A DNA stretch of 44,213 nucleotides. It comes from Candidatus Moraniibacteriota bacterium. Lineage in GTDB: Bacteria; Patescibacteriota; Minisyncoccia; Moranbacterales; UBA2206. The stretch is taken from contig DMXN01000032.1 in NCBI GenBank assembly GCA_003482885.1, forward strand, positions 97,974 through 142,186, in the 5' to 3' direction. The notes below the pieces were generated by a model. That model ran no database searches. It saw only the letters and a list, made by a program, of their open reading frames with translations, and had not been told where the DNA came from. A program made the translations under genes and the position numbers. Of this stretch, positions 349-14,975 are shown in pieces; the first letter of the stretch is position 1; each line of letters opens with the position of its first letter.

Positions 349-1305
349 TTATATGGCGTTTAAAGCGTAGTCGCAGCCGCAACTTATAGTTGCTCCAGAA
401 ACACTAGCATGACCATGGTTTCCTTGGTGGGGTTCATATTTTGCTCCGCATTTGCTAACAGCAGCTTCGATTTGACTGGCAGAAGCGGTGCTTCCGCCCG
501 TGGTGTTAATATCAATGGCGTAAGATTTTCCCTTGCAGTTTGTTCCTCCGTAATGGCAAGAGTTCATATCATGATGGCAACAACCAAGGGCATCGTCTTT
601 TTGACATTTGGTATTTGGGTAAAGAGTTGGACAGCTTGCTCCGCCATTATTGTCTGAGATAGAATTGATCATCATCGCCTTTGGATCATTGCCAAGTTGT
701 TGGTACATGCAAGAGATGAACGACATTAATTCTTGCGAAGCGTCTCCAGCGGTGCATTGCGCTTTTATTTTGTCTGTTTGAAAGGTGATAGTGTCGCAAG
801 AAACAGAAATCGGTGGCGTGTCTGGCGGTGTTGGTACGACAGTTGATGAGCTGGCGGTGGAGCAAGTGAATGTATCCCAGCTTTTCGCTTCCAATCCGAG
901 ATTATATTTTTCGACAGAATCTACGGGGGAAGATTTGGCGGAAAAAACATAAAAAGTTGTGTTGATAATCAGCCATGCTCCAAGCATCAAGGAAAAACCG
1001 ATTACGGTATTTACGGCAAGGCTTTTGGCCCGTTTGATCATTTCCGGATCGCCGGAAGAAACAATATACATTACTCCGGCTATGGTCATCATTGTAATTG
1101 AAAGCGCGATTAAAATATTTCTGCCCCAATCGATCAGATTTTTAAACCCAACAATAAAATGGCAAATTGTGCAGGGGTCAGTCAGGCCGTTGCCGCAAGG
1201 CACGACCCCCGCGGCATTAACTATAAAAATCGGCGCGACTAAAAATAGCAGGAAACTGAAAATTAAAACAAAAGTAGGTAGTTTATTTTTTTGGCAATAG
1301 TTCAT
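349..1305 (-). CDS. T4SS-pilin (VirB2/TrbC-like) domain protein fused to a C-terminal Cys/His-rich putative zinc cell-wall peptidase (LAS / peptidase M15-like) domain
   Basis: 318-aa ORF. N-terminal signal/TM (TFVLIFSFLLFLVAPIFIVNA) and a PCGNGLTDPCTICH motif. The two-helix membrane hairpin ILIALSITMMTIAGVMYIVSSGDPEMIKRAKSLAVNTVIGFSLMLGAWLII fits the CPR T4SS_pilin pattern. A Pro/Thr linker (VVPTPPDTPP) leads to a Cys-rich domain with SCHYGG...YAIDI and YEPHQGNHGH. These resemble the SxHxxGxAxD ... EPWH zinc site of VanY/M15 peptidases (motif-level resemblance only). Confidence 0.7.
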   Translation of the reverse strand: MNYCQKNKLPTFVLIFSFLLFLVAPIFIVNAAGVVPCGNGLTDPCTICHFIVGFKNLIDWGRNILIALSITMMTIAGVMYIVSSGDPEMIKRAKSLAVNTVIGFSLMLGAWLIINTTFYVFSAKSSPVDSVEKYNLGLEAKSWDTFTCSTASSSTVVPTPPDTPPISVSCDTITFQTDKIKAQCTAGDASQELMSFISCMYQQLGNDPKAMMINSISDNNGGASCPTLYPNTKCQKDDALGCCHHDMNSCHYGGTNCKGKSYAIDINTTGGSTASASQIEAAVSKCGAKYEPHQGNHGHASVSGATISCGCDYALNAI

Positions 1306-1323
1306 TATTTTTTTGTTATTTTT

Positions 1324-2361
1324 TTATTTTCCTCCGCATTTGGCATAAAGTCCTACTCCGTTCCATGCATAATTTATTGATTCTTCAAGACCGCCGGGAT
1401 CTACGCAACATTCAAAAGCCAAACAACCCGTTCCGCATCCGCCGCTGCCAACCGCTCCGCTTGGGCAAAGCGCGTGTTTTTCCGGACTGCAAGCTGATCC
1501 TGTGCAACCATAGCCACTGTTGTAGCCGGCAAAAATTGCGGAATTCTTATCTTTCGCGGCTCCGGCGCAAGAACTGGCTTGCTTTTGTTTAATATATTCA
1601 GCGGCTAACTTTATGGATAATTCGTCGCTATTTATTAAATCCGTACAAGACACTGTTTTTCCAGCTAAGCCGCTGGCTGTTGCTGGCAGAAGCTGCATAA
1701 GTCCGCAAGCTCCGGACGGACTGGGACCCTTATTGCTTCCGCAACTCGATTCCATTTGCGCCATCGTTCTTAGCAAACAAGGATCCACCTTAGAGCTGTT
1801 GTTATCAAAAAGAGTTTTATATTGATCGCAAGCCGAAGATAACTTTATATCTGTATCGTTGGTAGCTTTTGAATAATCGATAGGGACAGTACTATTTGAA
1901 TCGGGACAGGCTTTTTTATAGCCGGCGGTAGTTCCGCTGGGACCGTTGGGCGCTCCCGGCGTTCCGGCCGCTCCGGAAGTCGGCAAAGGATTGATTCTAA
2001 CCAAATTCGGATTGATTGTGTAAAGAGCTATGTATGAAAGCAATGCGAGAACTACGCCAATAATTGCATCGACAATGATTCCCTTAGCTTTTCCGGATTG
2101 AGAAGTGTTTCCGGCGCTGGTGATATACATAAAAGCGCCGATGGAAATCATTAGAACGGCGGAAATTCCCACCGTCCATAAACCGAATTTATAAATCGCC
2201 AAAACATAAGCTTCGTAAGTTGTCGGCTTGCCAAATCCGGGAATTTCTTCCATCGGAGTGTATTTAAATGACATTGCTTGTAATAGCAAAGGAGTAAAAA
2301 AAATCAAAAAAGCGAAAAATATTGCTGCGATTCTTTGTTTTGTTTTGATTTTAAAATTCAT
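1324..2361 (-). CDS. T4SS-pilin-like domain fused to a family-1 (SLT / VirB1-like) lytic transglycosylase domain
   Basis: 345-aa ORF. Signal/TM (IAAIFFAFLIFFTPLLLQA), an IPGFG motif, and the pilin hairpin LWTVGISAVLMISIGAFMYITSAGNTSQSGKAKGIIVDAIIGVVLALLSYIALYTI. After a Gly/Pro linker the C-terminal domain carries the three SLT motifs in order: MAQMESSCG (catalytic E-S), CGLMQLLPATA (GLMQ), FAGYNSGYG (AYNxG). It overlaps the upstream gene by 11 nt. Confidence 0.8.
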   Translation of the reverse strand: MNFKIKTKQRIAAIFFAFLIFFTPLLLQAMSFKYTPMEEIPGFGKPTTYEAYVLAIYKFGLWTVGISAVLMISIGAFMYITSAGNTSQSGKAKGIIVDAIIGVVLALLSYIALYTINPNLVRINPLPTSGAAGTPGAPNGPSGTTAGYKKACPDSNSTVPIDYSKATNDTDIKLSSACDQYKTLFDNNSSKVDPCLLRTMAQMESSCGSNKGPSPSGACGLMQLLPATASGLAGKTVSCTDLINSDELSIKLAAEYIKQKQASSCAGAAKDKNSAIFAGYNSGYGCTGSACSPEKHALCPSGAVGSGGCGTGCLAFECCVDPGGLEESINYAWNGVGLYAKCGGK

Positions 2362-5056
2362 TTGAATTAGATCTAGGTAAGATGAAAAAAATAATTTTTA
2401 CAGAGAAAATAATTACGACTCCGGAAAGAATGATGCGGAAAAGAAACGCGATATAATTGGGAATGCCGGAAGAAACAGTGGCGAATATTTTTTGCGGCGA
2501 ATTTTCTTTTTGCGCGATTTCCGCGCTCACCATTGCCACTTCAATACTGTCCGTCAATTTTTTTTCATAAAATCCATTATAGGAAACATTCCAATATTTA
2601 TTCAATACTTGTTTGACGGCGTTATTTTGCGTGAATAAATTTGAAAAAGAAATTTTATAACTTTCGCCGTAATTTTTTGGCGGAAGAATCAGTTTTCCAT
2701 AATCATTTAAGTCAATACTGTATCCGTAATCAGTAACATTGGCGGTAGTAATAATATTTCCATCGACATTCCATTTGTACGGGCAATCTTCCGGTTTGGC
2801 GAAAGTTTCGGGCGTGTCAATGCCGGAAAAAACAGGATAAAGTTCAAGATTATAACCGGTCAAAGCTTGAAACTTTGTGTTACTGCGATCTTCAAAAGAT
2901 TTGCCGTAAATATCAATATAATCTCCCAAAAGCAACCCCCGGCAAGTGTATTGGCTGGAATCGGCAGGATTGGTTTTTTCATTGGGAATGATTTTTACCG
3001 CTGGCGCGGAAACTTTGAAAACTCTAGTTAAATCCAATCTTTCGCCAGTGCCTGTATTGAGCGCGGACAAATTCACGGAATATTGATCTTCGGAAATTTT
3101 CAAGACGGGAAAATAACTTATATTTGTTTGTTTGTCGTTGGAAATACATCCCTGAAAATTTATATCCGGGCAAGTCAGATTTTCTCCGTCAAGCGTCCAT
3201 AGAAAATCAGTGTAAGCGCTATCGGCATTATCAATTTTTACCGCGATTATTTCATTTTGAGCGATTTCGCAAAGAGCGGCGGGCGTTGTTTCATCATCAA
3301 GCAAACACCTTTCTTGCGAATTATCAGGAAGACTTACAGTAGGATTTTTACCGTCAGTATCCAGCGAAACTTTAGCCGTATAAACTTTTATTCTTTTTTC
3401 CGAAGAAAAAATCGGCACGACAACATCCGTATGTCCTTCTCTTTCTCCACCTTCTGTCAAAGTGTCATTGACGGTTAATTTTATTTTCAAATATTTTTTC
3501 GACTCTTCGAAATTTAATTTGAACTTAAACGAGTTGATGCCCAATCCGGAAGTTTGTGTCGCGTCGTCCAAGGCGGATTTCGAAAGCGCGGATCCCCAGC
3601 TGTCAGGATTTGGTTCATCGTTGGCAAAAACTTCCCAAGTATAATTCAAATAAGCGGAATTGCTGGCATTAATGACGGAAGATTTAAAAGAAAGCTCATC
3701 GCCGTTTTTATTTTCGCCGGCATCGTTAATTGGATTTTCCGGCGAGTAAGAAAGCGAAACATCCAATTTTTCCGTCGCGCCGCCACCCTCGGCGGGAGTG
3801 ACAAGATTTTTATAAAGGCAATCATTGAGATTATCCACAGTCATATCTGTTGTTAAAATACTTTGGTCTGTCGCATCAGTTCCTGAGCAATCATAAGTAG
3901 TGTCATCAATGATAATAGTGGATGTTTCTGGCGGACAAGTGGAAGTTGTTTCGTCTGAAATTACGACACCGGCAAATGTAACTACAATTCTTGTTAGGGT
4001 TCTTATGGTGGCTGAATCATTAATTTGAGTGCCATCAACAATGTCTTCTGTGGTAATAGTGGTTGTTGTGTAGCCAATACTCGGAGTATTTTGTTGAACG
4101 GTTGTGGTTGTTTTCGGATAAGCATTTTGATCAGTTGACACATCGCAAGTATTCTTGGTGAGCGCCCACATCGTTTTGTATGAAGCGTCTTCGTATTGAG
4201 TCGGTTCAGTGGAAATACCTTCAATGGCTACGCCGATTTTATCGCCGGCAGTGTAAGTGAATGTAAAAACATTTTCGCCCAGTCCTGCGACATTGGCTTC
4301 ATCTGTGTTGCCTGTATTGGAGGTATCTTTGGCATAAGGATTGGTGCGCCAAAATTCTTCCTCTGTTAAACCGAATTTATTATCACCGGTTTCATCACCG
4401 GGAGCATTGGGAAAAAGATGGGCGCAGGTTTCCAGCTCATATTCATCTCCCGTTTCAACATTGTGAATATAGCAATGTTCCAGTTTTCCTTTTTGATCGT
4501 CTCCGCCAAAATAGGCTGTGTAGCCATCATTATCAGTATCAGCGGTATACGAGCTTTGATCCCAAGGGTAGTCATAATTAGCTAAAATACGCATGGCTTT
4601 TATTTTGTAATCTTCAATGTCAACTTCTCCCGTGTCGTTCAGATCGCACTTTTCAAAATCTCCCGAAGCGAATTTGTTTTTATAACCAACTCCGTCTGTT
4701 TCCCTGTCATAGCAGCGTTTATTTTTCAGATACCATGTGAAATAAAGATCCTCGGTGTTATTTAGAAAATTAGTCGGTGTAGCGATAACAGTCACTTTTT
4801 CTCCCGGCACAGGGTCAGTCGGGTCAAATGAAAGAGAAACCATCGGGGGATTTTTTTTTTGTCGGGCAACATTCATTGTTTGAATGCTGTATTTCAATTC
4901 ATTTTTATTAACGCCAAGATCATCAAGAATGGCATTCATTGCTTCCACGGGGTTGGCCAATGATTGCCAGTCCGCGCGAGTTGGCGTTATATCCAAAGAA
5001 AAAACGCCTAGACTGATAAACAGCGCGAATAATATTTTTTTTATTTTCTTTTTCAT
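2351..5056 (-). CDS. 901-aa cell-surface protein (signal peptide + C-terminal membrane anchor), no recognisable catalytic domain
   Basis: Longest ORF in the cluster. N-terminal signal peptide KKILFALFISLGVFSLDITPTRA and C-terminal TM IAFLFRIILSGVVIIFSVKIIFFIL. The sequence is rich in T/D/N with acidic DxDxDG-like patches (DTDNDGYTAYFGGDD, DLNDTGEVDIED). ATGA start/stop overlap with the upstream gene at 5053-5056. Confidence 0.75.
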   Translation of the reverse strand: MKKKIKKILFALFISLGVFSLDITPTRADWQSLANPVEAMNAILDDLGVNKNELKYSIQTMNVARQKKNPPMVSLSFDPTDPVPGEKVTVIATPTNFLNNTEDLYFTWYLKNKRCYDRETDGVGYKNKFASGDFEKCDLNDTGEVDIEDYKIKAMRILANYDYPWDQSSYTADTDNDGYTAYFGGDDQKGKLEHCYIHNVETGDEYELETCAHLFPNAPGDETGDNKFGLTEEEFWRTNPYAKDTSNTGNTDEANVAGLGENVFTFTYTAGDKIGVAIEGISTEPTQYEDASYKTMWALTKNTCDVSTDQNAYPKTTTTVQQNTPSIGYTTTTITTEDIVDGTQINDSATIRTLTRIVVTFAGVVISDETTSTCPPETSTIIIDDTTYDCSGTDATDQSILTTDMTVDNLNDCLYKNLVTPAEGGGATEKLDVSLSYSPENPINDAGENKNGDELSFKSSVINASNSAYLNYTWEVFANDEPNPDSWGSALSKSALDDATQTSGLGINSFKFKLNFEESKKYLKIKLTVNDTLTEGGEREGHTDVVVPIFSSEKRIKVYTAKVSLDTDGKNPTVSLPDNSQERCLLDDETTPAALCEIAQNEIIAVKIDNADSAYTDFLWTLDGENLTCPDINFQGCISNDKQTNISYFPVLKISEDQYSVNLSALNTGTGERLDLTRVFKVSAPAVKIIPNEKTNPADSSQYTCRGLLLGDYIDIYGKSFEDRSNTKFQALTGYNLELYPVFSGIDTPETFAKPEDCPYKWNVDGNIITTANVTDYGYSIDLNDYGKLILPPKNYGESYKISFSNLFTQNNAVKQVLNKYWNVSYNGFYEKKLTDSIEVAMVSAEIAQKENSPQKIFATVSSGIPNYIAFLFRIILSGVVIIFSVKIIFFILPRSNSNEF

Positions 5057-5715
5057 TTGGTCAAATAAATTATATAACCATCTAAAATTATTATAGCAAA
5101 AATACCGGCAAAATACGAATAGAAAAATGATTTGGTTTTATAGGACAGCACGCCTCCTGTAATGGAAAGCAAAACAAAGGGCATAGTTTGCCAAGAAAAA
5201 TTTTGGGTGAAAAATAAAACGGCGAAAAATATTCCGGCTTGCAGGGCGATTGACCAATACCGGAATTTTTCCCTGAAAACAGCCAGCAAAAAACCTTGAA
5301 AAAAGAAGCTAAAAATAAAAACAATAAAATTGACAATAATCAATTCGCGAACTAAAAACAGCCAAAAATTGTTTTTTATATAATCATCCAAGACATAGCC
5401 GGTTTTGAATTGAGTATAATTAAGCATTAAGTAAAAAATCGTTAGCGTAAAAATAGTTATAATTATTCCCCACAATAAAGCGATATTTTGGTTTTTTAAA
5501 TTCCAGCCGAAATCCGCGAGATTTTTTTTGAGAATAATTTTGATATATGCCATAGGGAGCAAAATCAGAAAAAATAAATTTTTGGTAATATCTTGCGCCG
5601 AATTTTGCGCGGGAAAAGCAACGCTTAAAAAAAGGCAAAGCAAAGCGACGGCGAGACTGATAAGTAGTTCTCGGTTGGAGGAGAAAAATAAATTTTTAGA
5701 TTTTTGTGAGTACAT
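5053..5715 (-). CDS. polytopic membrane protein (about 6 TM), function unknown
   Basis: 220-aa ORF that is almost entirely hydrophobic helices and translationally coupled to the 901-aa gene. The spacing of helices is faintly reminiscent of CPBP/Abi proteases, but the EExxxR and His motifs are not present, so no family call is made. Confidence 0.6.
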   Translation of the reverse strand: MYSQKSKNLFFSSNRELLISLAVALLCLFLSVAFPAQNSAQDITKNLFFLILLPMAYIKIILKKNLADFGWNLKNQNIALLWGIIITIFTLTIFYLMLNYTQFKTGYVLDDYIKNNFWLFLVRELIIVNFIVFIFSFFFQGFLLAVFREKFRYWSIALQAGIFFAVLFFTQNFSWQTMPFVLLSITGGVLSYKTKSFFYSYFAGIFAIIILDGYIIYLTK

Positions 5716-5820
5716 TTTTTAATTTTGTCAGCCCATCTTTTTCTGTCATCCCCGCGGAGGCTGGGATCCAGGCACCCTAGGCTAACTATTTTAACAAATC
5801 GAAATTCAAATTTTTTTGCA

Positions 5821-5951
5821 GGTTCAGGCGTCTCGCCTGAACCATTTATTTCTAGAAAAACTATCTATTTTTCAATCGCTAATTTTAAAATTATCTTTTC
5901 TAAATAATTAGTCTCGCCAGAAACGTTCGGTTCAAGCGAGACGCTTGAACC
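5821..5951. repeat. pair of 23-nt hairpin repeats in opposite orientation with a compensatory base-pair change
   Basis: ggttcaGgcg-tct-cgcCtgaacc (5821-5843) and ggttcaAgcg-aga-cgcTtgaacc (5929-5951). The loop is inverted and a G-C pair is replaced by A-T. They flank 85 nt of AT-rich sequence in the 263-nt spacer 5716-5978, which also contains catccccgcggaggctgggat (5747-5767). Confidence 0.8.
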
Positions 5952-5978
5952 TGCTGCTAGACCACGCCCCTACAATTT

Positions 5979-6491
5979 TTACGCGTATCCCCCCGTCATT
6001 CCCGCCATTTCTCTTTCTTGTTGCCGTTCTTCGGCGGCTTCTTTTCTTTCTTGCAGGATGAAAATATAAATAACAAAAGCGGTAATTGTTTCCACTGGTA
6101 TAAAATTCAAACCAAATAACATTTCAAAAATCGTTCCTCCGGCAAGCGTTCCCCATTTTTTGGCAATTTTTTCTGTTATTTTTTTTCCTTTGGATTTAGA
6201 ACTGGATCTGGATCCGCAAATAAACATAGCGGCAATAATTGTGATAGATGCCATAAAAGTTAACGCGGTTCCGATAACGGGAATTGATCCGACAGCTAAA
6301 AAATCTAAAACATCTTTTAAAACAGCAGTCATTATGGCGACAATGAAAAAGATGTCTATAATTTCAATAAAACCAATTAAGGAAAAGGCTTGTGAGGCTG
6401 CAGCCCTTTTGTTATTATCGCTGGAGAGTTTGTTTCTTGGCTGATTAGATGATCTTTCTTGATTTAGATTGTTTTTGTATTCTTGAGACAT
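5979..6491 (-). CDS. small membrane protein (3-4 TM) with polar N-terminus and E/R-rich C-terminus
   Basis: 170-aa ORF directly downstream of the VirB4 ATPase gene on the same strand. TM helices include IIDIFFIVAIMTAVL, IPVIGTALTFMASITIIAAMFI and ITAFVIYIFIL. Charged tail ERKEAAEERQQEREMA. Confidence 0.55.
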   Translation of the reverse strand: MSQEYKNNLNQERSSNQPRNKLSSDNNKRAAASQAFSLIGFIEIIDIFFIVAIMTAVLKDVLDFLAVGSIPVIGTALTFMASITIIAAMFICGSRSSSKSKGKKITEKIAKKWGTLAGGTIFEMLFGLNFIPVETITAFVIYIFILQERKEAAEERQQEREMAGMTGGYA

Positions 6492-8490: not shown

Positions 8491-8622
8491 TACGAAAGTA
8501 CAAAATTATACAAAAATACAAATGTACAAAAAAATAAAATATTTATAGCAACAAACTTGAGTTTATTTTTTTTTGTATTTTCGTACTTTTGTCCGCCGCG
8601 GCGGATTCGTAATTTCGTAGGG
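8491..8622. repeat. composite repeat array (tacgaa/tacaaa modules + gtccgccgcggcggat hairpin) forming the spacer between the two VirB4 ORFs
   Basis: ctacgaaagtacaaaattatacaaaaatacaaatgtacaaaaaa ... ttttgtattttcgtacttttGTCCGCCGCGGCGGATtcgtaatttcgtag. The two halves are an imperfect inverted repeat. The same module types occur at 13855-13898, 15018-15039, 20968-20999 and 37751-37790. Confidence 0.75.
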
Positions 8623-9375: not shown

Positions 9376-9774
9376 TTAACGGTTCTGACGATCTAATAAT
9401 CTTGAAACATCTTCAATATTTTTCGCGTCAATATTCTTTTTGCCAATTGTCGAAACAGCCGTTTGTTTCTTAGCGGAACTTCTGGATGTTTTTTCCGAAA
9501 TTCGACGCCAAATGTACATTTTCGGTCGGGTGGCGAACGAGATCGAGGATAAAATAAATTTAATCAGCGGTTGATTATATGGCCGGTAAAATGCCAGCGC
9601 TCCGAAAATTACGGCGATAATGATAACGGAAATCCAAAACGCGGATTGATCCAACAAACTATAGCAAACCAAAGCTATCACGCCGCCCATCGCCAGCCAG
9701 CCCATTTGTTTGGCGGTAAGCGGTCCGACGATCTTGTCTTCGATATCGATAAATTGGGGAACATTGAATAACAT
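9376..9774 (-). CDS. PrgI / VirB3-like small T4SS membrane protein
   Basis: 132 aa. The N-terminus MLFNVPQFIDIEDKIVGPLTAKQMGWLAMGGVIALVCYSLL matches the PrgI-family signature (VP..I..EDKI.G.LT.RQ followed by two TM helices). It sits immediately upstream of VirB4, as VirB3 genes do. Confidence 0.55.
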   Translation of the reverse strand: MLFNVPQFIDIEDKIVGPLTAKQMGWLAMGGVIALVCYSLLDQSAFWISVIIIAVIFGALAFYRPYNQPLIKFILSSISFATRPKMYIWRRISEKTSRSSAKKQTAVSTIGKKNIDAKNIEDVSRLLDRQNR

Positions 9775-9778
9775 AAGC

Positions 9779-10792
9779 TTATTCTTCTTTTCTCAAGTCT
9801 ATCACATTTTTCGGCATTGGTCTTTGAAAATTATTTTTTACCGTTGGTTTTTCGACAGAAAATTTTTGCGTGGAAGAAAAGCGGATATTGTTGGCACCGG
9901 ATTGATTTGTGTTGTTATTATTTTCCAGCGTTTCTTTTAGGGGTAAATTCTGCCGCCAAGCGCTTAATCTTTCTTCGTCGGACTGAAATGTTTGCGGTTT
10001 TTCCGATGGATAATTTTGGCGAGGAGCGGATTGTCCATCCAAGGCGGATTCAGCGAAAGACGGTTTTATTACGGGTCGTTCTTGATTGATCGCAGTGCTG
10101 AAAACCACTTGTCTGGTATTTGTATTGATAGCCAGCGGAGTTTTTTCTTCAAAGGATTTTAAAATTTGAGAAAGTTTGTCGCGATCTTGGGCGGAAAGTT
10201 TTTGGGCGTTTTCATTTTTGAATAAATAATTTCCGCGGACAATCGGATCATGATTGCTGATGCCGATGTTGAAAGTATAATCGGAAAGCCAATTTTTAAT
10301 GGACGGCCGGACGGGCTCAAAAAAACTTTTCAGTTTAATATAATCGGAAGTAATTAATTGTTCGCCTGTTTCCGGATATCTTTTAACCGCAACCTCAATC
10401 GGCAGTTTTTCGAGTTGGGATTGGTAAGCTTTTTCCTGCGAATCGTCGTTGATTATTTTTTGAATAATCATTTGGGAAATTTCTTTCGCTTTTGCTAGAT
10501 CAATCGGAATTTCTTTAGCGAGATAAAATGGCATATCTTCCAATGCTATTTCGCCGAAATAATAACTTCTAACTGTAATTGCGACTATTGAAATTTGCTC
10601 TGGATTTAAGTTGAATGTGTAGTTTATTCTTTTAATAACTTCTGCGGTTTTTTGTGATGTAAGTTTGCCTTTGTTAGTTTCAGATAAAGTATCAAGTTTG
10701 TCCCATTTGGCTAAAATGGAAGCAGAAGATTCATTGCCATAAGTCGCAACAATAGGGAAAAAGTAAAATTCAATTTTATTTTCTGTGTTCAT
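9779..10792 (-). CDS. hypothetical soluble protein of the T4SS-like cluster
   Basis: 337-aa ORF with no TM segment or signal peptide. Its stop lies 4 nt before the PrgI-like start. The C-terminal third is low-complexity and polar (Q/N/P/S rich). No recognisable motif. Confidence 0.6.
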   Translation of the reverse strand: MNTENKIEFYFFPIVATYGNESSASILAKWDKLDTLSETNKGKLTSQKTAEVIKRINYTFNLNPEQISIVAITVRSYYFGEIALEDMPFYLAKEIPIDLAKAKEISQMIIQKIINDDSQEKAYQSQLEKLPIEVAVKRYPETGEQLITSDYIKLKSFFEPVRPSIKNWLSDYTFNIGISNHDPIVRGNYLFKNENAQKLSAQDRDKLSQILKSFEEKTPLAINTNTRQVVFSTAINQERPVIKPSFAESALDGQSAPRQNYPSEKPQTFQSDEERLSAWRQNLPLKETLENNNNTNQSGANNIRFSSTQKFSVEKPTVKNNFQRPMPKNVIDLRKEE

Positions 10793-10902: not shown

Positions 10903-12720
10903 TTATGTTGTAGCGTTGCTTTCTGGGTTAAGCCCTTCTTTTATATAAATTGCTCGTTGAGAAGGCGTGAGTTTTTCAAATAGTTTGGTCATATACTGGC
11001 TTCCTTTTTCTTTTGTGCCTATGGATTTTATATATCCTTGCAACTCTTTATCGTCTTCTATGCTATTATGCAAACTTCCTTGTTTAGCTAAATCATCTGA
11101 TGACATATCCAAAGTTTTTTCATATATTTTCGTTCTGTCAGTAATTTTTTTCTTTATAATTTCTCCGGTTTTTTCATCTTTTTCTTCAATTTCAATTCCG
11201 TGGGTAAGATCATAATCAAGCACGAATTTAATGTTGTTATCTTTTTTGGCTTTACCTCGTAATTCTTTTTGCAATTCTTCGTCTCCAGCGAGAGCTTTCA
11301 TTGCTAAATCAAAAGTCTTTGAACTATTAATCTTATCCTTTTTGGACAGATAAAGCGCTGCTGCCTTCTTTTCCACATCATCACCTTTTTCCATTTTGAG
11401 TTCGGCTCCTGATGCGCTTAGCCGTTCATCTTCAAACTCTTTTTGTTTAGCGGCGATTCGTTTTCTTTTCATGTTTTCAGAAGCGCCTTTAACTCCCAAT
11501 TTTCCAGCAATAATTGCTTCTCTTTCTTCTTGCCTTTTCTTTCCGAACCAGCTTTTATCTTGAATGTTTGCCCATCGTGCTTTTACTCCGCCAGTCAATC
11601 CGGATTTTTTTGATATAAATCCAGCTGAACCGCCAAGTGGATTTTTTGCCAGCCATTTTCCGGCTTTCTTTCCTGCTCCCACCACTGCTTGCGCTCCAGC
11701 GATTCCGGAACTTTGCGCTTGCAATATTCCGTACCATAAAATAATAATCGGCATTGAGAAATAGGAAACTTCGGCGATTAATTTTGCCAGTTCCGCAGTG
11801 ACTCCTTCGACTCCTCCCGGAACTTGAGTGGCGGCTATTGTTTTGATAACATCCTGAGAAGATCCGATTGCCAATAACATTTTGCTGGCGATGTAAAGAA
11901 AAAAGATTATAATCGGTCCGGCAAAACATTGTTTCATAAAATCCGTCCACCATTTGCTGGCGGCGCTGGCGAGCTCTGTGCCGGGAAGAATTGATCCCGT
12001 GAAAGCGACAGGCGAAAAAACAATTAAAATAGCTAGCGTGATTGTTCGGATAACCAAAAGAACGGCAATGACCAAAAGCGTGATGGCGAAAATAAAAGTG
12101 AAGACGACGGCGGAAAGAAGATACAGAGGATCCGAACTGGTTGTTACAAGCATATTTTGCAAGCCGCTTTTTTGAATAATGTCCATAAAAGAACCCGTGC
12201 CACCGAGGTTGTTTAGAAATCCGTACATTAGCATATTGGAAACATCAATAATAAATCGCGCGATGGGATAACTGAAATTGACCAAAAGCGCCATCAGCAC
12301 TAAGTTGAGCCAAATATTTTTGATGCCGTATTTGCTGTATTGAAAAATAGTGGAGAAAGCGGAAAACAATAAAACCATAATAAAAGCGATATTGAAAACA
12401 TCGCGCACCGTCCGCCAAGTCGTGTATATCGCGTTATTGTCCATTATAGCTTTCATATTATCCGGGTTGACAATATACACAAAAAGTGTTTCCGCTCCGG
12501 AAAGCAAAATAGTGACAAATTTCAGCACTATTTTAAGAAGAAAGATAACCAGTCCGGTAAATTGTTTTGCAAACCATCCGGGACTTTCTTCAGCCGCACT
12601 TGCTCCGTGCGAATAAAAAAAGACGAAAAATAAAACCAAGCAAAAAATCGCCAGAAAGTGGTTTTTGGAAAAATGATTTTTGAGGGATGATAGTTTTTGT
12701 TTTAGCATTTTTATTGTCAT
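10903..12720 (-). CDS. VirB6/TrbL-like polytopic T4SS channel protein with a long K/E-rich cytoplasmic tail
   Basis: 605 aa. It has an N-terminal signal-like helix and at least 6 further TM helices over about 380 aa, followed by a ~200-aa highly charged tail (KRQEEREAIIAGKLG...KEFEDERL...). The size, topology and position next to VirB3/VirB4 genes are as for VirB6/TrbL. No diagnostic sequence motif exists, so this is a context and topology call. Confidence 0.6.
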   Translation of the reverse strand: MTIKMLKQKLSSLKNHFSKNHFLAIFCLVLFFVFFYSHGASAAEESPGWFAKQFTGLVIFLLKIVLKFVTILLSGAETLFVYIVNPDNMKAIMDNNAIYTTWRTVRDVFNIAFIMVLLFSAFSTIFQYSKYGIKNIWLNLVLMALLVNFSYPIARFIIDVSNMLMYGFLNNLGGTGSFMDIIQKSGLQNMLVTTSSDPLYLLSAVVFTFIFAITLLVIAVLLVIRTITLAILIVFSPVAFTGSILPGTELASAASKWWTDFMKQCFAGPIIIFFLYIASKMLLAIGSSQDVIKTIAATQVPGGVEGVTAELAKLIAEVSYFSMPIIILWYGILQAQSSGIAGAQAVVGAGKKAGKWLAKNPLGGSAGFISKKSGLTGGVKARWANIQDKSWFGKKRQEEREAIIAGKLGVKGASENMKRKRIAAKQKEFEDERLSASGAELKMEKGDDVEKKAAALYLSKKDKINSSKTFDLAMKALAGDEELQKELRGKAKKDNNIKFVLDYDLTHGIEIEEKDEKTGEIIKKKITDRTKIYEKTLDMSSDDLAKQGSLHNSIEDDKELQGYIKSIGTKEKGSQYMTKLFEKLTPSQRAIYIKEGLNPESNATT

Positions 12721-12838: not shown

Positions 12839-13849
12839 CTATTTGTACAACGCTCCCGGTCCATATTCATTGACAGCTTTGTTGGTTTGGTTGACGGCGG
12901 AGTTGGTGATCATATCGGCTTCTCGGGTAATCGCTCTTTCCACTCCTTTAATAGTTGATTCCATCAATCCTGAAATAGCTTTGGAAACAGTGGCGGCAAC
13001 CAGTTCCGGAATAGTGGTAGCGGCGGTGATAGCTAGATTAGGCAGATTTTCCACATTAGCCTTGGCGTCTTTAAATAATATTCCGGGCTTCATAACATCC
13101 CCGCTGTCTCCATCGGTTTTTTCACTTTTCCATCCTTGATTGGCAGTTCCTTCGGTAACGGCTACAAGTGTTTCTTCTGCTTGTTTTTGCTGGTATTTTT
13201 CCGCGATGCATCTTTCAAAGTCCGACGGCATATTATTGCCTCCGTTGACATAGAGATTCATATTAGCCAGCGTTTCACTCTCAAACATATTAGCCGGTTC
13301 TTCGAAATAAGTTACTTCGCATTCTTTCGGTTCGATGGCGTTTTGTCCCACCTCCATCATATTTTGCGCGTAACTTTCAGTGGTTGGTGAATATTCATCT
13401 CCCAGCACCATTTTTTTGCTAAAAAAACCTTCGTTGCCAGCCATTGCTACTGTGCTGGCGCCGAAAACAGCGCCACTGCTGGAATAGCTGGCGCCGGATC
13501 CGCGGCCGGAAAGGGCATGGCTGATATAGTCGTTCATATATCGCTGGGCATTGCGGGTGGGATTTTTGATAAGATAATTTTCCCAGCTGGTAATAAAGCG
13601 GACGCCGTTTCGGGAAACGCCGGAAATAAAACGATCCATTTCTCTAGAAAGCAATGAAATGGCCGATTGTCTTAGTGAACCCATCACTGTGCCCTTAACG
13701 GTGTAATCAACCTGATCTTGCACATATCTCCATGTTTCCGCTGCCAGCGCATCCCACGCATTCGCTTTTTTTGTTTGCACCGGAGAAAAAGACAAAAACA
13801 TTGCCAAGAATAATATTAAGACGATTTTTTTTGATGGATAATTTTTCAT
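12839..13849 (-). CDS. secreted protein of unknown function (signal peptide)
   Basis: 336 aa. Signal peptide KKIVLILFLAMFLSFSPVQTKKANA. No further TM. Sits within the T4SS-like gene block. Confidence 0.6.
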   Translation of the reverse strand: MKNYPSKKIVLILFLAMFLSFSPVQTKKANAWDALAAETWRYVQDQVDYTVKGTVMGSLRQSAISLLSREMDRFISGVSRNGVRFITSWENYLIKNPTRNAQRYMNDYISHALSGRGSGASYSSSGAVFGASTVAMAGNEGFFSKKMVLGDEYSPTTESYAQNMMEVGQNAIEPKECEVTYFEEPANMFESETLANMNLYVNGGNNMPSDFERCIAEKYQQKQAEETLVAVTEGTANQGWKSEKTDGDSGDVMKPGILFKDAKANVENLPNLAITAATTIPELVAATVSKAISGLMESTIKGVERAITREADMITNSAVNQTNKAVNEYGPGALYK

Positions 13850-13854
13850 TGTTC

Positions 13855-13898
13855 TACGAAATTACAAAATTTTACAAAAATACAAAAGTACAAAAAAG
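13855..13898. repeat. tacgaa/tacaaa module array
   Basis: ctacgaaattacaaaattttacaaaaatacaaaagtacaaaaaag, between two genes of the T4SS-like block. Same family as 8491-8540. Confidence 0.7.
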
Positions 13899-13910
13899 AC
13901 AACCACAAAA

Positions 13911-14975
13911 TTACGGGTTTGATGTTGGAATTAATGATTGCAATCCGCTTAAATCCGCTGGTGCGTCAATTCCGTAACTTTTTAATTTCTTTTGCACGGT
14001 TTCGTCATAGGTTACGCCGTATTCGGCAAACTTGCTTTCCATTTCAGAGGCAAAGCTTGAAAAAGATGAAATAAATCCTTCCATTTTGGAAAGATTGGCG
14101 ATTTCTCCCAGCGGATCATCCGCTTTCGGCTGGATCAATTTTCCCAAATTTTCCGAATAAAGCGCGAAACGCAAAGCTTTGATATGAATATCAACTAACT
14201 CTTCCGGTACTTCCACCGTTTTTAATTGTTCCGTTATTTTTTTTTGGCTGTCCATGAGCGTTTGCAGTCCGGCGGTATTTCTGCTTGTTAACGCGTTAGT
14301 GATAGTTTTTGTTATATCGGAAAGCATATTGGGCGCGTCGGAAAGCGAAGTAATAGGCTGGGGAGAGTTGCTGGAAAAAATATAAAGAACAGCAGTAATG
14401 TAGTTCAAAAAATCTTCTTTCCTTTTTTCTTTGGCTTTAGCTTCGCTTAACTTCCCGTAATTTTGTTTCTTTATATTCAAATCTTCCTTGGCAATTTCCG
14501 GCAATGCGTTCTCGGAAACAGTGTTATTATTTATAGATTCATCAACAAGCGTTTGCACTTCTTCCATAGAAATTTGTTTATCCGTTCCTTCGGAAGACGC
14601 GACCAGCTCGGAAATTTTTTGCGCGACTTCGGAAGTAAGATTTTTTTCCTCCGAATCCCCCAATACCGCGCCGGTTTTTTCGGTATTAGCATCACCGGCA
14701 GTCGCGTTCAGTCTGTCTCCCGGGGCCGGTTTGGTCGGATCGTAGCCGCTGCGCACTTCCGCGCCGTCGGAATAACTGTCGCCGTCAGTATCAGCCTTTG
14801 CGGGATTAGTGCCGTACATTTTTTCTTCTTCATCGGATAAACCGTCCTGATCGCTGTCCAAAAAAATATTGCCGACTCCATAGGAATTGTTTTCCGCGCC
14901 GACAAAAAAAGCAAAACTTAAAACAATCAAGCTTGCAAGAATGAAAAAAGAAAGATTAATATTTTTTAATTTCAT
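13911..14975 (-). CDS. secreted protein with thrombospondin-type-3-like acidic Ca-binding repeats
   Basis: 354 aa. Signal peptide NINLSFFILASLIVLSFAFFVGA followed by DSDQDGLSDEEEKMYGTNPAKADTDGDSYSDGAEVRSGYDPTKP (DxDxDG repeats). The rest appears helical. It is the first gene of the block and is preceded by an extended -10. Confidence 0.65.
   Translation of the reverse strand: MKLKNINLSFFILASLIVLSFAFFVGAENNSYGVGNIFLDSDQDGLSDEEEKMYGTNPAKADTDGDSYSDGAEVRSGYDPTKPAPGDRLNATAGDANTEKTGAVLGDSEEKNLTSEVAQKISELVASSEGTDKQISMEEVQTLVDESINNNTVSENALPEIAKEDLNIKKQNYGKLSEAKAKEKRKEDFLNYITAVLYIFSSNSPQPITSLSDAPNMLSDITKTITNALTSRNTAGLQTLMDSQKKITEQLKTVEVPEELVDIHIKALRFALYSENLGKLIQPKADDPLGEIANLSKMEGFISSFSSFASEMESKFAEYGVTYDETVQKKLKSYGIDAPADLSGLQSLIPTSNP

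What the first reader, a model, noticed from the sequence alone, without database searches (positions are those of the whole stretch)
349..14975. Stripped-down type IV secretion-like gene block without coupling protein, relaxase or VirB11
Twelve co-directional, tightly packed minus-strand genes make up this block. They encode two signal-peptide proteins (one with DxDxDG Ca-binding repeats), a VirB6/TrbL-like polytopic protein with a ~200-aa K/E-rich tail, a soluble unknown and a PrgI/VirB3-like protein. They also encode a two-piece VirB4 ATPase, two further membrane proteins, a 901-aa anchored surface protein and two VirB2/T4SS-pilin-like proteins. Nothing resembling VirD4/T4CP, a relaxase, VirB11, VirB9/10 or an integrase is in the block, and the far flank is ordinary housekeeping (UbiA, rsmA). 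It therefore looks like a chromosomal, non-conjugative, Gram-positive-type minimal T4SS in a genome with CPR/Patescibacteria hallmarks. Such organisms are episymbionts, so host-cell contact, DNA or nutrient uptake, or effector delivery are plausible roles, but none can be read from the sequence. About half of the genes have no assignable function.
Basis: partly seen in the sequence, partly recalled or inferred. Interest (0 to 1): 0.75.

Follow-up and report, generated by a model that had tools for sequence, protein, structure and literature searches.

The report
Patescibacteria-type type IV secretion locus
This gene block is real, but it is one more copy (in a groundwater Moranbacteria genome) of the relaxase-less, chromosomal type IV secretion system already described across Patescibacteria in 2023-2025; the one detail I did not find in the papers I read is that its two "pilins" carry cell-wall-cutting domains.

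Summary
Twelve co-directional minus-strand genes (349-14975) encode VirB4, a separate TrsD-like VirB4 N-terminal piece, PrgI/VirB3, an extended VirB6, two T4SS_pilin-domain proteins and six unassigned proteins. No T4CP, relaxase or VirB11 lies in the block, in the other 29 kb of the window, or in 10 kb past the window start. A 13th co-directional gene runs off the window start. Wzy, Jag, YidC, RnpA, dnaA and dnaN follow it, so the block lies about 8 kb from the dnaA-dnaN region.

The organism is a Candidatus Moranbacteria (Parcubacteria). All 13 genes and both flanks are syntenic across related species, so the locus is inherited vertically and is not an ICE.

Wang 2023 showed such a system is essential for epibiotic growth. 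Quinonero-Coronel 2025 surveyed 3,035 genomes and reported the same parts list, the missing relaxase and the dnaA/ksgA neighbourhood.

Additions here:
- Both pilin-domain proteins carry extracellular C-terminal domains. One is an SLT lytic transglycosylase; the other may be a LAS-type zinc hydrolase.
- The soluble unknown belongs to a large unannotated family with a confident fold that matches nothing in the PDB.
- Four intergenic spacers fold into strong hairpins.

Function remains inferred.

The parts
1..318 (-). First 106 codons of a 13th co-directional gene (381 aa in full): an N-terminal membrane anchor followed by a probable extracellular beta-propeller.
   Evidence: Called as a 381-aa gene 30 bp after the 318-aa gene in five assemblies. 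Conserved downstream of VirB4 in 36 of 80 related loci. A profile of the family gives weak WD40/TolB matches in the PDB, E 0.006-0.02. No Pfam hit.
349..1305 (-). Pilin-domain protein (318 aa): signal peptide, VirB2-like two-helix hairpin, Ser/Thr/Pro linker, then a Cys-rich extracellular alpha/beta domain with an invariant SCHYGG...S-x-A-x-D...H-x-H-x-S signature. This may be a LAS/hedgehog-type zinc hydrolase.
   Evidence: T4SS_pilin 1.6e-5, 25.3 bits against a gathering score of 26.6. 35 of 51 family members hit T4SS_pilin, best 1.1e-17. AlphaFold2 mean pLDDT 83.5, hairpin H47-82/H87-123, C-terminal domain pLDDT above 90. Invariant residues. The family profile matches the Sonic hedgehog N-domain across its zinc ligands, but only at E 0.16. 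Foldseek and hhalign did not confirm the fold.
1324..2361 (-). Pilin-domain protein (345 aa) fused to an SLT lytic transglycosylase. This supplies a VirB1-like activity.
   Evidence: SLT PF01464 4.1e-11 over residues 189-291; T4SS_pilin 1.1e-3 over residues 63-108. The ES (204), GLMQ (220) and AGYNSG (278) motifs are present. PHROGs transglycosylase and endolysin families match. A family pilin HMM scores 2.3e-28.
2351..5056 (-). 901-aa surface protein with an N-terminal signal-like segment and a C-terminal membrane anchor. It is a candidate adhesin.
   Evidence: Hydrophobic segments at residues 5-23 and 875-893. No hit in Pfam, NCBIfam, PHROGs or PDB sequences. Present at the same position in 21-25 Moranbacteria loci, with the N- and C-terminal halves conserved separately.
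5053..5715 (-). 220-aa polytopic membrane protein, weakly CPBP/Rce1-like. It contains no histidine, so it cannot be an active CPBP metalloprotease.
   Evidence: Pfam Rce1-like E 0.022; NCBIfam ABC_perm_CPBP 4.3e-4. Five hydrophobic segments. Zero His residues. Conserved in 25-26 loci.
5716..5978 (-). Structured intergenic spacer: a nearly perfect hairpin of about 135 nt, built from two copies of GGTTCARGCG....CGCYTGAACC.
   Evidence: RNA fold -95.9 kcal/mol, z = -7.8, none of 200 shuffles as stable. The motif occurs only at these two places in the window. The corresponding genes abut in relatives.
5979..6491 (-). 170-aa membrane protein with three hydrophobic segments, unassigned.
   Evidence: Conserved in 24-25 Moranbacteria loci.
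6650..8482 (-). VirB4 ATPase (610 aa from ATG 8482).
   Evidence: conju_CD1110 1e-113, above cut-off; VirB4_plasma 8.6e-91; P-loop_TraG 1.9e-30. Walker A GAGKS at 266 and Walker B VDEAW at 475. 55-90% identical to VirB4 of 80 Patescibacteria genomes. Start codon taken.
8623..9309 (-). TrsD-like protein (228 aa), homologous to the N-terminal domain of VirB4. It is a separate gene, not a frameshift.
   Evidence: TrsD 1.5e-7; VirB4_plasma 6.5e-11 against profile positions 92-253; precomputed PF26593 TraC-like hit. Present as its own ORF just upstream of VirB4 in 80 of 80 loci. The same arrangement occurs in Pontibacillus (29% identity, 6e-27).
9376..9774 (-). PrgI/VirB3-like membrane protein (132 aa).
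   Evidence: PF12666 3.4e-12, above the gathering score; TcpE 1.8e-4. Present in 79 of 80 loci.
9779..10792 (-). 337-aa cytoplasmic protein of a large unannotated family: an alpha-helical core (residues 10-230) and a disordered tail.
   Evidence: No TM segment and no Pfam, NCBIfam or PHROGs hit. 140 homologues, all unnamed or 'hypothetical' apart from one JGI label ('flavodoxin'), none with a Pfam domain. 2,574 representative clusters at E<=1e-3 and 680 at <=1e-30. AlphaFold2 pLDDT above 93 over residues 11-230. No PDB fold match, best E 0.63. No match in 72,556 plasmids.
10903..12720 (-). Extended VirB6-like polytopic protein (605 aa): at least six hydrophobic segments, then a hydrophilic tail of about 250 aa that is 32-44% charged.
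   Evidence: Hydropathy and composition. Homologous to L030:4903-7161 (E 1.7e-37), which hits TrbL/VirB6 at 6.8e-10, 39.5 bits against a gathering score of 25.9. 4 of 31 aligned homologues hit TrbL. The window protein itself has no hit.
12839..13849 (-). 336-aa secreted or anchored protein, unassigned and specific to this lineage.
   Evidence: N-terminal hydrophobic segment. 30 homologues in the word-seeded search, those named being Moranbacteria, none with a Pfam domain. No PDB hit with the family profile.
13911..14975 (-). 354-aa secreted or anchored protein with bacterial TSP3 calcium-binding repeats. It is the first gene of the block.
   Evidence: TSP3_bac 8.3e-11, two repeats. Hydrophobic N-terminus. 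Found in 17 Moranbacteria loci.
14984..15013 (-). Best sigma-70-like promoter match in the first 17 kb of the window, 9 nt upstream of the first gene.
   Evidence: TTCACA-18-TATAAT, 11 of 12 positions, with TG. This is a consensus match only; the total number of such sites in the region is no higher than in shuffles.
8487..8533 (-). 47-nt element that ends 5 nt before the VirB4 ATG. A second copy lies at 13851-13897.
   Evidence: 94% identical direct repeat. The 28-nt core occurs only at these two places, with 0 expected by chance. Absent from 80 related loci.
13851..13897 (-). Second copy of the 47-nt element, ending 1 nt before the ATG of the 336-aa gene.

Best explanation
The block is the chromosomal, vertically inherited Patescibacteria-type type IV secretion system. 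This lineage is related to monoderm MPF-FATA conjugation machines but has no relaxase or coupling protein at the locus. Here it sits in a groundwater Candidatus Moranbacteria.

Shown by the tests here:
- The locus encodes VirB4, a separate TrsD-like N-terminal piece, PrgI/VirB3 and an extended VirB6.
- It also encodes two pilin-domain proteins, one of them fused to an SLT transglycosylase, plus seven lineage-restricted envelope or cytoplasmic proteins.
- It lies between rsmA/UbiA and the Wzy...Jag-YidC-RnpA-dnaA-dnaN region.

Inferred mechanism:
- VirB4/TrsD, docked on VirB3 and VirB6, extracts the membrane-embedded pilin-domain proteins and assembles them into a surface filament or short conduit.
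- The muralytic C-terminal domains of these proteins open peptidoglycan, in the cell's own wall and possibly in the host's.
- The 901-aa anchored protein, the TSP3 protein and the propeller protein make or stabilise host contact.
- The structure serves epibiotic attachment and exchange with the host. Uptake of host material seems more likely than DNA export, because no substrate receptor (T4CP) is present.

My estimates: identity as this kind of system about 0.95; non-conjugative about 0.8; pilus or conduit for host interaction about 0.45. Direction and cargo are not readable from sequence.
For: -
- The best VirB4 matches are 80 Patescibacteria genomes. The top ones are Moraniibacteriota at 89-90% identity.
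- All 13 genes keep the same order across Moranbacteria species down to about 67% VirB4 identity. The PrgI-TrsD-VirB4 triad is present in 79-80 of 80 loci.
- Both flanks are conserved across species, and dnaA is adjacent in more distant genomes.
- No T4CP, relaxase, VirB11 or integrase is found in the block, in 29 kb on one side, or in 10 kb on the other.
- Published work matches feature by feature. PMC12102498 reports the VirB4 clade nested in MPF-FATA, adjacent TrsD, PrgI, VirB6, PF18895 pilins, no relaxase, a dnaA/dnaN/rnpA/ksgA neighbourhood, and VirB1 associated with virB4 in Paceibacteria.
- PMC10633639 shows the T4SS and its pilin array are essential for epibiotic growth of Southlakia and lack T4CP and relaxase.
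- PMC12857230 proposes a pilus conduit for uptake.
- bioRxiv 10.64898/2026.06.21.733656 reports tubular structures reaching into the host, together with RNA uptake.
- On the muralytic domains: the SLT motifs are intact, and pilin+SLT, pilin+SLT_3, pilin+VanY and pilin+M15 fusions recur in relatives.
Against: - No experiment bears on this organism.
- Only about 55 kb around the block could be inspected. PMC12102498 reports VirD4-like genes far from virB4 in most Patescibacteria genomes, so a coupling protein encoded elsewhere cannot be excluded.
- The pilin assignment of the two window proteins rests on sub-threshold Pfam scores plus family context. Foldseek found no VirB2/TraA match for the hairpin.
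- The LAS-hydrolase reading of the 318-aa protein is not supported by Foldseek or hhalign.
- No VirB8-like component was identified.
- A globular domain of about 200 aa on every subunit may be incompatible with a canonical VirB2 helical pilus.
Confidence: 0.62

Rival explanations
1. A working conjugation or DNA-export machine whose coupling protein and relaxase are encoded elsewhere in the genome, as in systems where the t4cp gene sits next to the relaxase and far from virB4.
For: PMC12102498 found 5,713 VirD4-like proteins in 2,918 Patescibacteria genomes, mostly far from virB4. Only part of this genome could be inspected. VirB4 passes the cut-off of a model named for conjugal transfer, conju_CD1110.
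Against: Relaxases were found in only 103 of 3,035 genomes. The distant t4cp gene of Southlakia is not essential while the T4SS is. The locus occupies a fixed chromosomal position across species and has no mobile-element boundaries.
Confidence: 0.1
2. A T4CP-independent exporter of proteins (effectors or toxins) into or onto the host cell, analogous to the Ptl or Brucella VirB systems.
For: Wang 2023 suggests protein export as one option. T4CP-less protein-secreting T4SSs exist. Several Sec-dependent proteins of unknown function are encoded at the locus.
Against: In a monoderm, Sec substrates are already outside the membrane, so a T4SS adds little unless it injects them. No recognisable toxin or effector domain was found in the block.
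Confidence: 0.18
3. A nucleic-acid import machine, working like the archaeal Ced system, that draws host RNA or DNA in through a pilus-like tube.
For: The VirB4 has weak similarity to CedB and CedD (1.8e-12 and 1.6e-5). A cultivated Patescibacterium takes up host RNA and shows tubes entering the host, and VirB4 and PNPase are both ancient in the phylum. No export receptor is present at the locus.
Against: The CedB score (46.7 bits) is far below that family's cut-off of 700. Competence in Southlakia depends on ComEC and type IV pili, and comEC is dispensable for growth while the T4SS is not. No nucleic-acid-binding domain was found in the block.
Confidence: 0.15
4. The pilin-domain proteins are not pilus subunits. 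They are cell-wall hydrolases held in the membrane by a two-helix anchor, and the system is a wall-remodelling and surface-display apparatus that builds no filament.
For: All pilin-domain proteins at this locus carry domains of about 200 aa. 44 of 49 in relatives have C-terminal extensions of at least 60 aa. No short stand-alone pilin occurs in the window or in the 10 kb past its start.
Against: Saccharimonadia have arrays of VirB2-like pilins that are essential. Tubular structures have been seen in a cultivated relative. The hairpin domain is the most conserved part of these proteins.
Confidence: 0.2
5. A decaying remnant of an integrated conjugative element with no current function.
For: The T4CP, relaxase and integrase are missing.
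Against: All 13 ORFs are intact and syntenic across many species, with protein identities from 25 to 90%. The catalytic motifs of VirB4 and SLT are intact. The homologous system is essential in Southlakia.
Confidence: 0.02

Closest known systems
Patescibacteria T4SS as surveyed by Quinonero-Coronel et al. 2025 (PMC12102498), with the Ca. Southlakia epibionticum ML1 locus SEML1_0006-0019 (Wang et al. 2023, PMC10633639) as the experimentally studied example
   Same: VirB4 with an adjacent TrsD-like gene, PrgI/VirB3, VirB6, PF18895 pilin-domain genes and muralytic enzymes at the locus. No relaxase or T4CP nearby. Chromosomal, next to dnaA, dnaN, rnpA and ksgA. Monoderm-type parts list with no VirB7, VirB9 or VirB10.
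   Different: This locus has two pilin-domain genes, not an array of six pilins. Both are fused to extracellular domains of about 200 aa (SLT in one, a Cys-rich possible zinc hydrolase in the other). The papers describe the Southlakia peptidase and lysozyme as separate genes downstream of virB4. Several accessory genes here were found only in Moranbacteria-type loci: the 901-aa, 336-aa, 354-aa, 220-aa and 170-aa proteins. Essentiality is not known for this organism.
MPF-FATA conjugative T4SSs of monoderms: pGO1/pSK41 Trs (TrsC, TrsD, TrsE, TrsG), pCF10 Prg/Pcf, Clostridioides difficile CTn (CD1110 family) and Mycoplasma ICE (Mbov_0395 pilin-like, Mbov_0397 VirB4)
   Same: The VirB4 passes the CD1110-family cut-off and matches the Mycoplasma ICE VirB4 model. 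A separate TrsD-like gene sits before VirB4, as in pGO1. A PrgI-type VirB3 and a VirB1-like SLT hydrolase are present. The 318-aa protein gives a weak hit to the Mbov_0395 pilin-like model.
   Different: There is no relaxase, T4CP, oriT or mobile-element context. No PrgB-type LPXTG adhesin or VirB8-like PrgL/TraM was found. The chromosomal position is fixed across species.
Unnamed VirB4 cluster on the 898-kb non-mobilizable replicon of Pontibacillus sp. ALD_SL1 (NZ_CP062975.1, 351-361 kb). It holds the closest VirB4 in the plasmid collection.
   Same: VirB4 is 36% identical. A TrsD-like gene lies directly upstream (29% identity, 6e-27). Two pilin-like genes are present, along with a 779-aa hypothetical protein and a small one in the VirB6 and VirB3 positions, and a large peptidoglycan hydrolase after VirB4. 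No T4CP or relaxase is annotated within 12 kb.
   Different: Its pilin-like proteins are short (145-151 aa), and the hydrolase is a separate 1,050-aa M23 protein. The flanks are chemotaxis and flagellar genes. It has no counterpart of the 337-aa cytoplasmic protein. Nothing in the record's annotation indicates a function.
Archaeal Ced DNA-import system (CedA, CedB)
   Same: A VirB4-family ATPase works without a relaxase or T4CP, and transport is proposed to run inwards.
   Different: Similarity to CedB is weak only (46.7 bits against a cut-off of 700). No CedA-like protein was identified. The lineage and envelope differ.

Membership tests
Patescibacteria-type T4SS (PMC12102498) | VirB4 belongs to the Patescibacteria VirB4 lineage | tested here: met
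   The 80 best genome hits are Patescibacteria MAGs (some carry other auto-assigned names) at 55-90% identity, topped by Moraniibacteriota. The best non-Patescibacteria matches reach only 29-36%. No formal tree was built.
Patescibacteria-type T4SS (PMC12102498) | A TrsD-like gene next to virB4, plus PrgI/VirB3 and VirB6 | tested here: met
Patescibacteria-type T4SS (PMC12102498) | VirB2-like (PF18895) pilin genes near virB4 | tested here: met
   Two pilin-domain genes. Their own scores fall just below the gathering score, but 35 of 51 family members hit T4SS_pilin at E<=1e-3, best 1.1e-17.
Patescibacteria-type T4SS (PMC12102498) | No relaxase and no T4CP at the locus; chromosomal, near dnaA and ksgA | tested here: met
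   The dnaA gene begins about 8 kb past the 318-aa gene. The rsmA/ksgA gene lies 2 kb upstream of the block.
Patescibacteria-type T4SS (PMC12102498) | Required for epibiotic growth | not testable with these tools
   Shown only for Ca. Southlakia epibionticum.
Conjugative MPF-FATA T4SS (ICE or plasmid) | VirB4, VirB3, VirB6 and VirB1-like core | tested here: met
Conjugative MPF-FATA T4SS (ICE or plasmid) | Type IV coupling protein (VirD4/TcpA family) | tested here: not met
   VirB4 is the only T4SS-type ATPase in the block or the rest of the window. No FtsK/VirD4/TraG-D family hit appears in the window or in the 10 kb past its start. The rest of the genome was not seen.
Conjugative MPF-FATA T4SS (ICE or plasmid) | Relaxase and oriT | tested here: not met
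   No relaxase family hit in the same stretch. No oriT search was possible without a relaxase type.
Conjugative MPF-FATA T4SS (ICE or plasmid) | Mobile-element context (integrase, variable insertion site) | tested here: not met
   The same flanks occur in 15-19 related species. The only tyrosine recombinase is Xer-like and lies 18.5 kb away.
Conjugative MPF-FATA T4SS (ICE or plasmid) | VirB8-like component (PrgL/TraM/TcpC fold) | tested here: inconclusive
   No sequence or profile hit for any block protein. Only two proteins were modelled, and neither is VirB8-like.
VirB2/TraA conjugative pilin | Signal peptide followed by two hydrophobic helices forming a hairpin | tested here: met
   Hydropathy. 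AlphaFold2 hairpin H47-82/H87-123, with block-mean pLDDT of 86-96 over residues 51-120. Weak TrbC/VirB2 PF04956 hits in relatives, E 0.008.
VirB2/TraA conjugative pilin | Small mature subunit, little more than the hairpin | tested here: not met
   The proteins are 318 and 345 aa with C-terminal domains of about 200 aa. 44 of 49 relatives also have extensions of at least 60 aa.
VirB2/TraA conjugative pilin | Polymerises into a pilus | not testable with these tools
   No multimer modelling or imaging was available.
LAS (lysostaphin / D-Ala-D-Ala peptidase / hedgehog) zinc hydrolases, for the C-terminal domain of the 318-aa protein | H-x(n)-D and H-x-H zinc-ligand motifs | tested here: met
   H251, D265, H297 and H299 are invariant in 10 homologues. 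They align with the hedgehog N-domain zinc ligands.
LAS (lysostaphin / D-Ala-D-Ala peptidase / hedgehog) zinc hydrolases, for the C-terminal domain of the 318-aa protein | LAS fold or significant family-level similarity | tested here: inconclusive
   The profile hit to hedgehog reaches only E 0.16. Foldseek on the full-length model gave no significant match against PDB or BFVD and no LAS enzyme among the matches listed. hhalign against the VanY domains of pilin fusions gave probability 0.2.
Family 1 lytic transglycosylase (SLT, VirB1-like), for the 345-aa protein | SLT domain with the ES, GLMQ and AYNxG motifs | tested here: met
   PF01464 4.1e-11, 42.9 bits against a gathering score of 21.3. 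Motifs at residues 204, 220 and 278.
CPBP/Rce1 intramembrane protease, for the 220-aa protein | Conserved catalytic histidines | tested here: not met
   The protein contains no histidine. Family scores are below the cut-offs.

The most novel reading that the evidence does not exclude
In this lineage the only VirB2-like subunits are fused through flexible Ser/Thr/Pro linkers to extracellular peptidoglycan hydrolases. One is an SLT transglycosylase; the other may be a LAS-type zinc peptidase. Relatives carry pilin+lysozyme-like (SLT_3), pilin+VanY and pilin+M15 versions. If these proteins polymerise as VirB2 does, the product would be a filament coated with muralytic enzymes, which could cut through the host's cell wall to reach its membrane. 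That would be a mechanism not described for any T4SS. Alongside it, the widespread 337-aa cytoplasmic protein with an unmatched fold, encoded between VirB6 and VirB3, could be the lineage's substitute for a coupling protein.
Probability: 0.15. Interest if true: 0.7.

Novelty: new member of a known kind. Interest (0 to 1): 0.3.

Why it matters
Patescibacteria may make up a quarter of bacterial diversity and live attached to other microbes. In the one genetically tractable species, this T4SS is essential for that lifestyle, yet what it transports, and in which direction, is unknown.

This locus adds no new kind of system. It does give a clean, complete Moranbacteria example with three testable features:
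- pilin domains fused to cell-wall hydrolases;
- a large family of cytoplasmic proteins with a confident but unmatched fold, encoded next to VirB3 and VirB6;
- a close, equally relaxase-less counterpart on a Pontibacillus megaplasmid, in a cultivable Firmicute where such a module might be studied.

Tried and rejected
- **LAS fold of the 318-aa protein's C-terminal domain.** Foldseek of the full-length AlphaFold2 model against PDB and BFVD returned only helical-hairpin matches, best E 0.5-0.7. An HMM of the domain did not find the VanY-containing pilin fusions. hhalign against them gave probability 0.2. The assignment therefore stays a motif-level hypothesis. The model could not be cropped, so the hairpin may have dominated the search.
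- **Profile searches of the PDB.** The 336-aa, 337-aa and VirB6-like families gave nothing meaningful, and neither did a single-sequence search with the 901-aa protein. The VirB6 profile matched only low-complexity charged tails.
- **First attempt to locate the TrbL-positive VirB6 homologues.** I scanned ten distant ones and none hit. A second set found L030.
- **PHROGs.** Nothing beyond the SLT domain.
- **The 47-nt upstream element.** A search with up to 6 mismatches in 80 related loci found nothing. Relatives show no equivalent shared upstream sequence.
- **ICE hypothesis.** Rejected because both flanks are conserved across species and no integrase, relaxase or T4CP was found.
- **Frameshifted VirB4.** Rejected because the two-gene arrangement is universal in 80 loci and in Pontibacillus.
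- **Walking further along the contig.** Assemblies break at the IS110 copy, so only about 2.5 kb was gained, with no T4SS gene in it.
- **Literature.** One search timed out.

Full report
**1. The observation**

The window carries twelve co-directional minus-strand ORFs between 349 and 14975. Identical gene calls appear in several independent groundwater metagenome assemblies of the same sequence (PRJNA292723 and JGI 3300009285/3300009296).

Pfam and NCBIfam confirm the recognisable parts.
- 6650-8521 is a VirB4 ATPase: NCBIfam conju_CD1110 at E 1e-113 and 381 bits against a cut-off of 325, VirB4_plasma 8.6e-91, and Pfam P-loop_TraG 1.9e-30. Walker A (GAGKS) and Walker B (VDEAW) are intact.
- 8623-9309 matches only the N-terminal part of VirB4 models and the TrsD family.
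- 9376-9774 is PrgI/VirB3 (PF12666, 3.4e-12).
- 13911-14975 has bacterial TSP3 calcium-binding repeats (8.3e-11).
- 349-1305 and 1324-2361 carry the T4SS_pilin domain, at 25.3 and 19.4 bits against a gathering score of 26.6.

The pilin assignment gains weight from the family. An HMM built from the two window domains finds 49 ORFs downstream of VirB4 in related loci. Of the 51 proteins (these 49 plus the two from the window), 35 hit T4SS_pilin, the best at 1.1e-17.

The 605-aa polytopic protein (10903-12720) has no hit of its own. It is homologous (E 1.7e-37) to L030:4903-7161 of another Moraniibacteriota genome, and that protein matches TrbL/VirB6 at 6.8e-10, above the gathering score. In all, 4 of 31 aligned homologues hit TrbL. 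Its C-terminal 250 residues or so are 32-44% charged, which makes it an 'extended VirB6'.

**2. Corrections to the description**

- A 13th co-directional gene (381 aa) starts 30 bp after the 318-aa gene, at window 318, and runs off the window start. It is conserved downstream of VirB4 in 36 of 80 related loci and gives weak beta-propeller matches.
- VirB4 most likely starts at ATG 8482 (610 aa). That is the start called in the public assemblies, and relatives align from that residue.
- The 'two-piece VirB4' is not a frameshift. A separate TrsD-like ORF precedes VirB4 in all 80 related loci and in the nearest Firmicute relative. PMC12102498 reports 1,664 such pairs.
- The two 'pilins' are long fusion proteins, described in section 5.
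- Gaps between genes run from -11 to 263 bp.

**3. What surrounds the block**

Past the window start lie the 381-aa gene, two Wzy-type genes, a GT2 glycosyltransferase, a polysaccharide flippase, Jag, YidC, RnpA, dnaA and dnaN. On the other side come UbiA, RsmA/KsgA and a G5-DPBB protein, and then 25 kb of housekeeping genes: ComM-like Mg-chelatase, LspA, PNPase, UvrD/PcrA, FtsH, TilS, Cmk and S1. That stretch also holds an IS200-like and an IS110 transposase, a HEPN/NYN pair, a LysM-CHAP hydrolase and one Xer-type recombinase 18.5 kb from the block.

Nothing resembles a T4CP, relaxase or VirB11. The window holds three tRNAs and no other Rfam family.

**4. Organism and inheritance**

The best VirB4 matches among 185,579 species genomes are Candidatus Moraniibacteriota/Moranbacteria MAGs at 89-90% identity. 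They are followed by other Parcubacteria, Falkowbacteria and Komeilibacteria at 55-60%.

All 13 genes occur in the same order in Moranbacteria loci down to about 67% VirB4 identity. The flanks are conserved too: G5-DPBB, RsmA and UbiA on one side and two Wzy on the other, in 11-19 loci each. In more distant genomes Jag-YidC-DnaA follow the block directly.

This is a vertically inherited chromosomal locus beside the dnaA-dnaN region, not an integrated element. Outside Patescibacteria, the closest VirB4 proteins in 72,556 plasmids come from Bacillota and Actinomycetota at 29-36% identity. That is the monoderm type.

**5. The pilin-domain proteins**

Each has a signal peptide, two hydrophobic helices and a Ser/Thr/Pro-rich linker. 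The predicted topology places the C-terminal domain of about 200 aa outside the cell.

In 1324-2361 that domain is an SLT lytic transglycosylase (4.1e-11) with the ES, GLMQ and AGYNSG motifs, which is a VirB1-like activity.

In 349-1305 it is a Cys-rich alpha/beta domain. AlphaFold2 gives pLDDT above 90 for the domain and shows a long helical hairpin for the pilin part. Ten homologues share an invariant SCHYGG...S-x-A-x-D...H-x-H-x-S signature. A family profile matches the Sonic hedgehog N-terminal (LAS zinc hydrolase) domain exactly across its zinc ligands, but only at E 0.16. Foldseek and hhalign do not confirm the fold. I therefore rate the hydrolase reading at about 0.5.

The fusion theme is general in this group. 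Of the 49 pilin-domain ORFs in relatives, 44 have C-terminal extensions of at least 60 aa. Recognisable domains among the 51 proteins scanned are SLT (6), SLT_3 (5), VanY (3), Peptidase_M15 (1) and Peptidase_C39_2 (1). Explicit examples are L055:16251-17612, L052:14178-15398 and L064:8637-9920.

No short stand-alone pilin exists in the window or in the 10 kb past its start. I did not find this fusion mentioned in PMC12102498.

**6. The remaining proteins**

The 337-aa protein between VirB6 and PrgI has no membrane segment and no family hit. It belongs to a large family with 140 word-seeded homologues, all unnamed or 'hypothetical' apart from one JGI label ('flavodoxin'), and none with a Pfam domain. 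The family spans 2,574 representative clusters at E<=1e-3. The protein is modelled with pLDDT above 93 over residues 11-230. It matches no PDB fold, best E 0.63, and no plasmid.

The 336-aa and 354-aa secreted proteins, the 901-aa anchored protein and the 170-aa and 220-aa membrane proteins were found only in Moranbacteria-type loci and remain unassigned. The 220-aa protein is weakly CPBP-like but has no histidine, so it cannot be an active CPBP protease. No VirB8-like protein was identified.

**7. Comparison with what is known**

The system is published.
- Wang et al. 2023 (PMC10633639) found by Tn-seq that the T4SS locus of Ca. Southlakia epibionticum (SEML1_0006-0019), including its pilin array, is essential for epibiotic growth. 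They noted the lack of a coupling protein and relaxase.
- Quinonero-Coronel et al. 2025 (PMC12102498) searched 3,035 Patescibacteria genomes. VirB4 was present in 2,417 of them and forms a clade nested in MPF-FATA. They reported adjacent TrsD, PrgI/VirB3, VirB6 and PF18895 pilins, relaxases in only 103 genomes, T4CP homologues rarely near virB4, and a neighbourhood rich in dnaA, dnaN, rnpA and ksgA in Paceibacteria and Microgenomatia. VirB1 homologues were associated with virB4 mainly in Paceibacteria.
- A 2025 review calls these systems unique among monoderm T4SSs and speculates on a pilus conduit for uptake (PMC12857230).
- A 2026 preprint on a cultivated member reports tubes entering the host together with host RNA uptake.

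The window's block matches this description feature by feature. It is therefore a further member of a known kind.

**8. Mechanism**

Shown: the parts list, intact catalytic motifs, conservation and chromosomal context.

Inferred:
- VirB4/TrsD, docked on VirB3 and VirB6, extracts the pilin-domain proteins from the membrane and assembles a surface filament or short conduit.
- The fused muralytic domains open peptidoglycan.
- The large anchored protein, the TSP3 protein and the propeller protein mediate host contact.
- The structure supports attachment to and exchange with the host.

VirB2, VirB3, VirB4, VirB6 and VirB1 together are essentially the pilus-biogenesis subset of a T4SS (established knowledge of VirB/F systems). 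No substrate receptor is present, so I favour a pilus or uptake role over DNA export. Cargo and direction cannot be read from sequence. The rivals are trans-encoded conjugation functions, T4CP-independent effector export, Ced-like nucleic-acid import, and membrane-anchored hydrolases that form no filament. Each is listed in the report with its own test.

**9. Verdict**

Novelty is low (new member of a known kind) and interest is about 0.3.

The most novel reading still open is a pilus studded with cell-wall hydrolases, with the 337-aa family as a lineage-specific cytoplasmic partner. I give it a probability of about 0.15.

Noticed in passing
window 8487-8533 and 13851-13897 (minus strand): A 47-nt AT-rich element (TTTTTTGTACATTTGTATTTTTGTATAATTTTGTACTTTCGTAGAAC) occurs twice at 94% identity. 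One copy ends 5 nt before the VirB4 ATG and the other 1 nt before the ATG of the 336-aa gene. It occurs nowhere else in the window (0 expected by chance) and is absent from 80 related loci. It could be an internal promoter or regulator site, or a small inserted element.
   Followed up: partly
window 5716-5978, 6496-6645, 8483-8622 and 12721-12838 (minus strand): Four intergenic spacers inside the block fold into unusually stable hairpins (z = -7.8, -4.1, -7.1 and -7.5; none of 200 shuffles as stable). In relatives the corresponding genes abut or overlap at two or three of these junctions, which suggests species-specific palindromic insertions, or RNA processing or stability elements. Two other spacers (10793-10902 and 13850-13910) are unstructured.
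   Followed up: partly
L090 (Pontibacillus sp. ALD_SL1, NZ_CP062975.1, 351-361 kb): The closest VirB4 in the plasmid collection (36% identity) sits in a similar cluster with no relaxase or T4CP within 12 kb. The cluster holds two short pilin-like genes, a 779-aa and a 116-aa hypothetical protein, a TrsD-like gene, VirB4 and a 1,050-aa M23 peptidase. It lies on an 898-kb replicon typed as non-mobilizable, between chemotaxis and flagellar genes. It could be a cultivable model for this kind of module.
   Followed up: partly
window 5053-5715 (minus strand): The 220-aa membrane protein resembles CPBP/Rce1 proteases weakly but contains no histidine at all. If the similarity is real, it is a catalytically dead relative.
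   Followed up: partly
window 43178-44155 (+) and 26303-26809 (-): An IS110-family transposase and an IS200-like Y1 transposase are present. Several public assemblies of this genome end at or just after the IS110 copy, which suggests it is repeated in the genome.
   Followed up: partly
window 27242-28154 (minus strand): Adjacent HEPN (135 aa) and NYN/LabA-like (165 aa) genes lie just downstream of a probable rpsO gene (28159-28428, identified by eye only). They may form a toxin-antitoxin or RNA-processing pair.
   Followed up: no
window 28430-29968: A stretch of about 1.5 kb has no ORF longer than 67 aa and no Rfam match better than E 0.05. A 26-nt-arm inverted repeat lies at 29626-29692.
   Followed up: partly
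window 22315-22379: A perfect inverted repeat with 26-nt arms and a 13-nt loop lies in the ORF-free gap between the UPF0102 gene and the 406-aa unknown gene.
   Followed up: no
window 33535-34521 (+), 34699-34887 (-) and 32197-33327 (-): A Xer-type tyrosine recombinase sits beside tRNA-Met and tRNA-Val, with a LysM-CHAP cell-wall hydrolase nearby. All are 17-20 kb from the T4SS block and show no sign of belonging to it.
   Followed up: no
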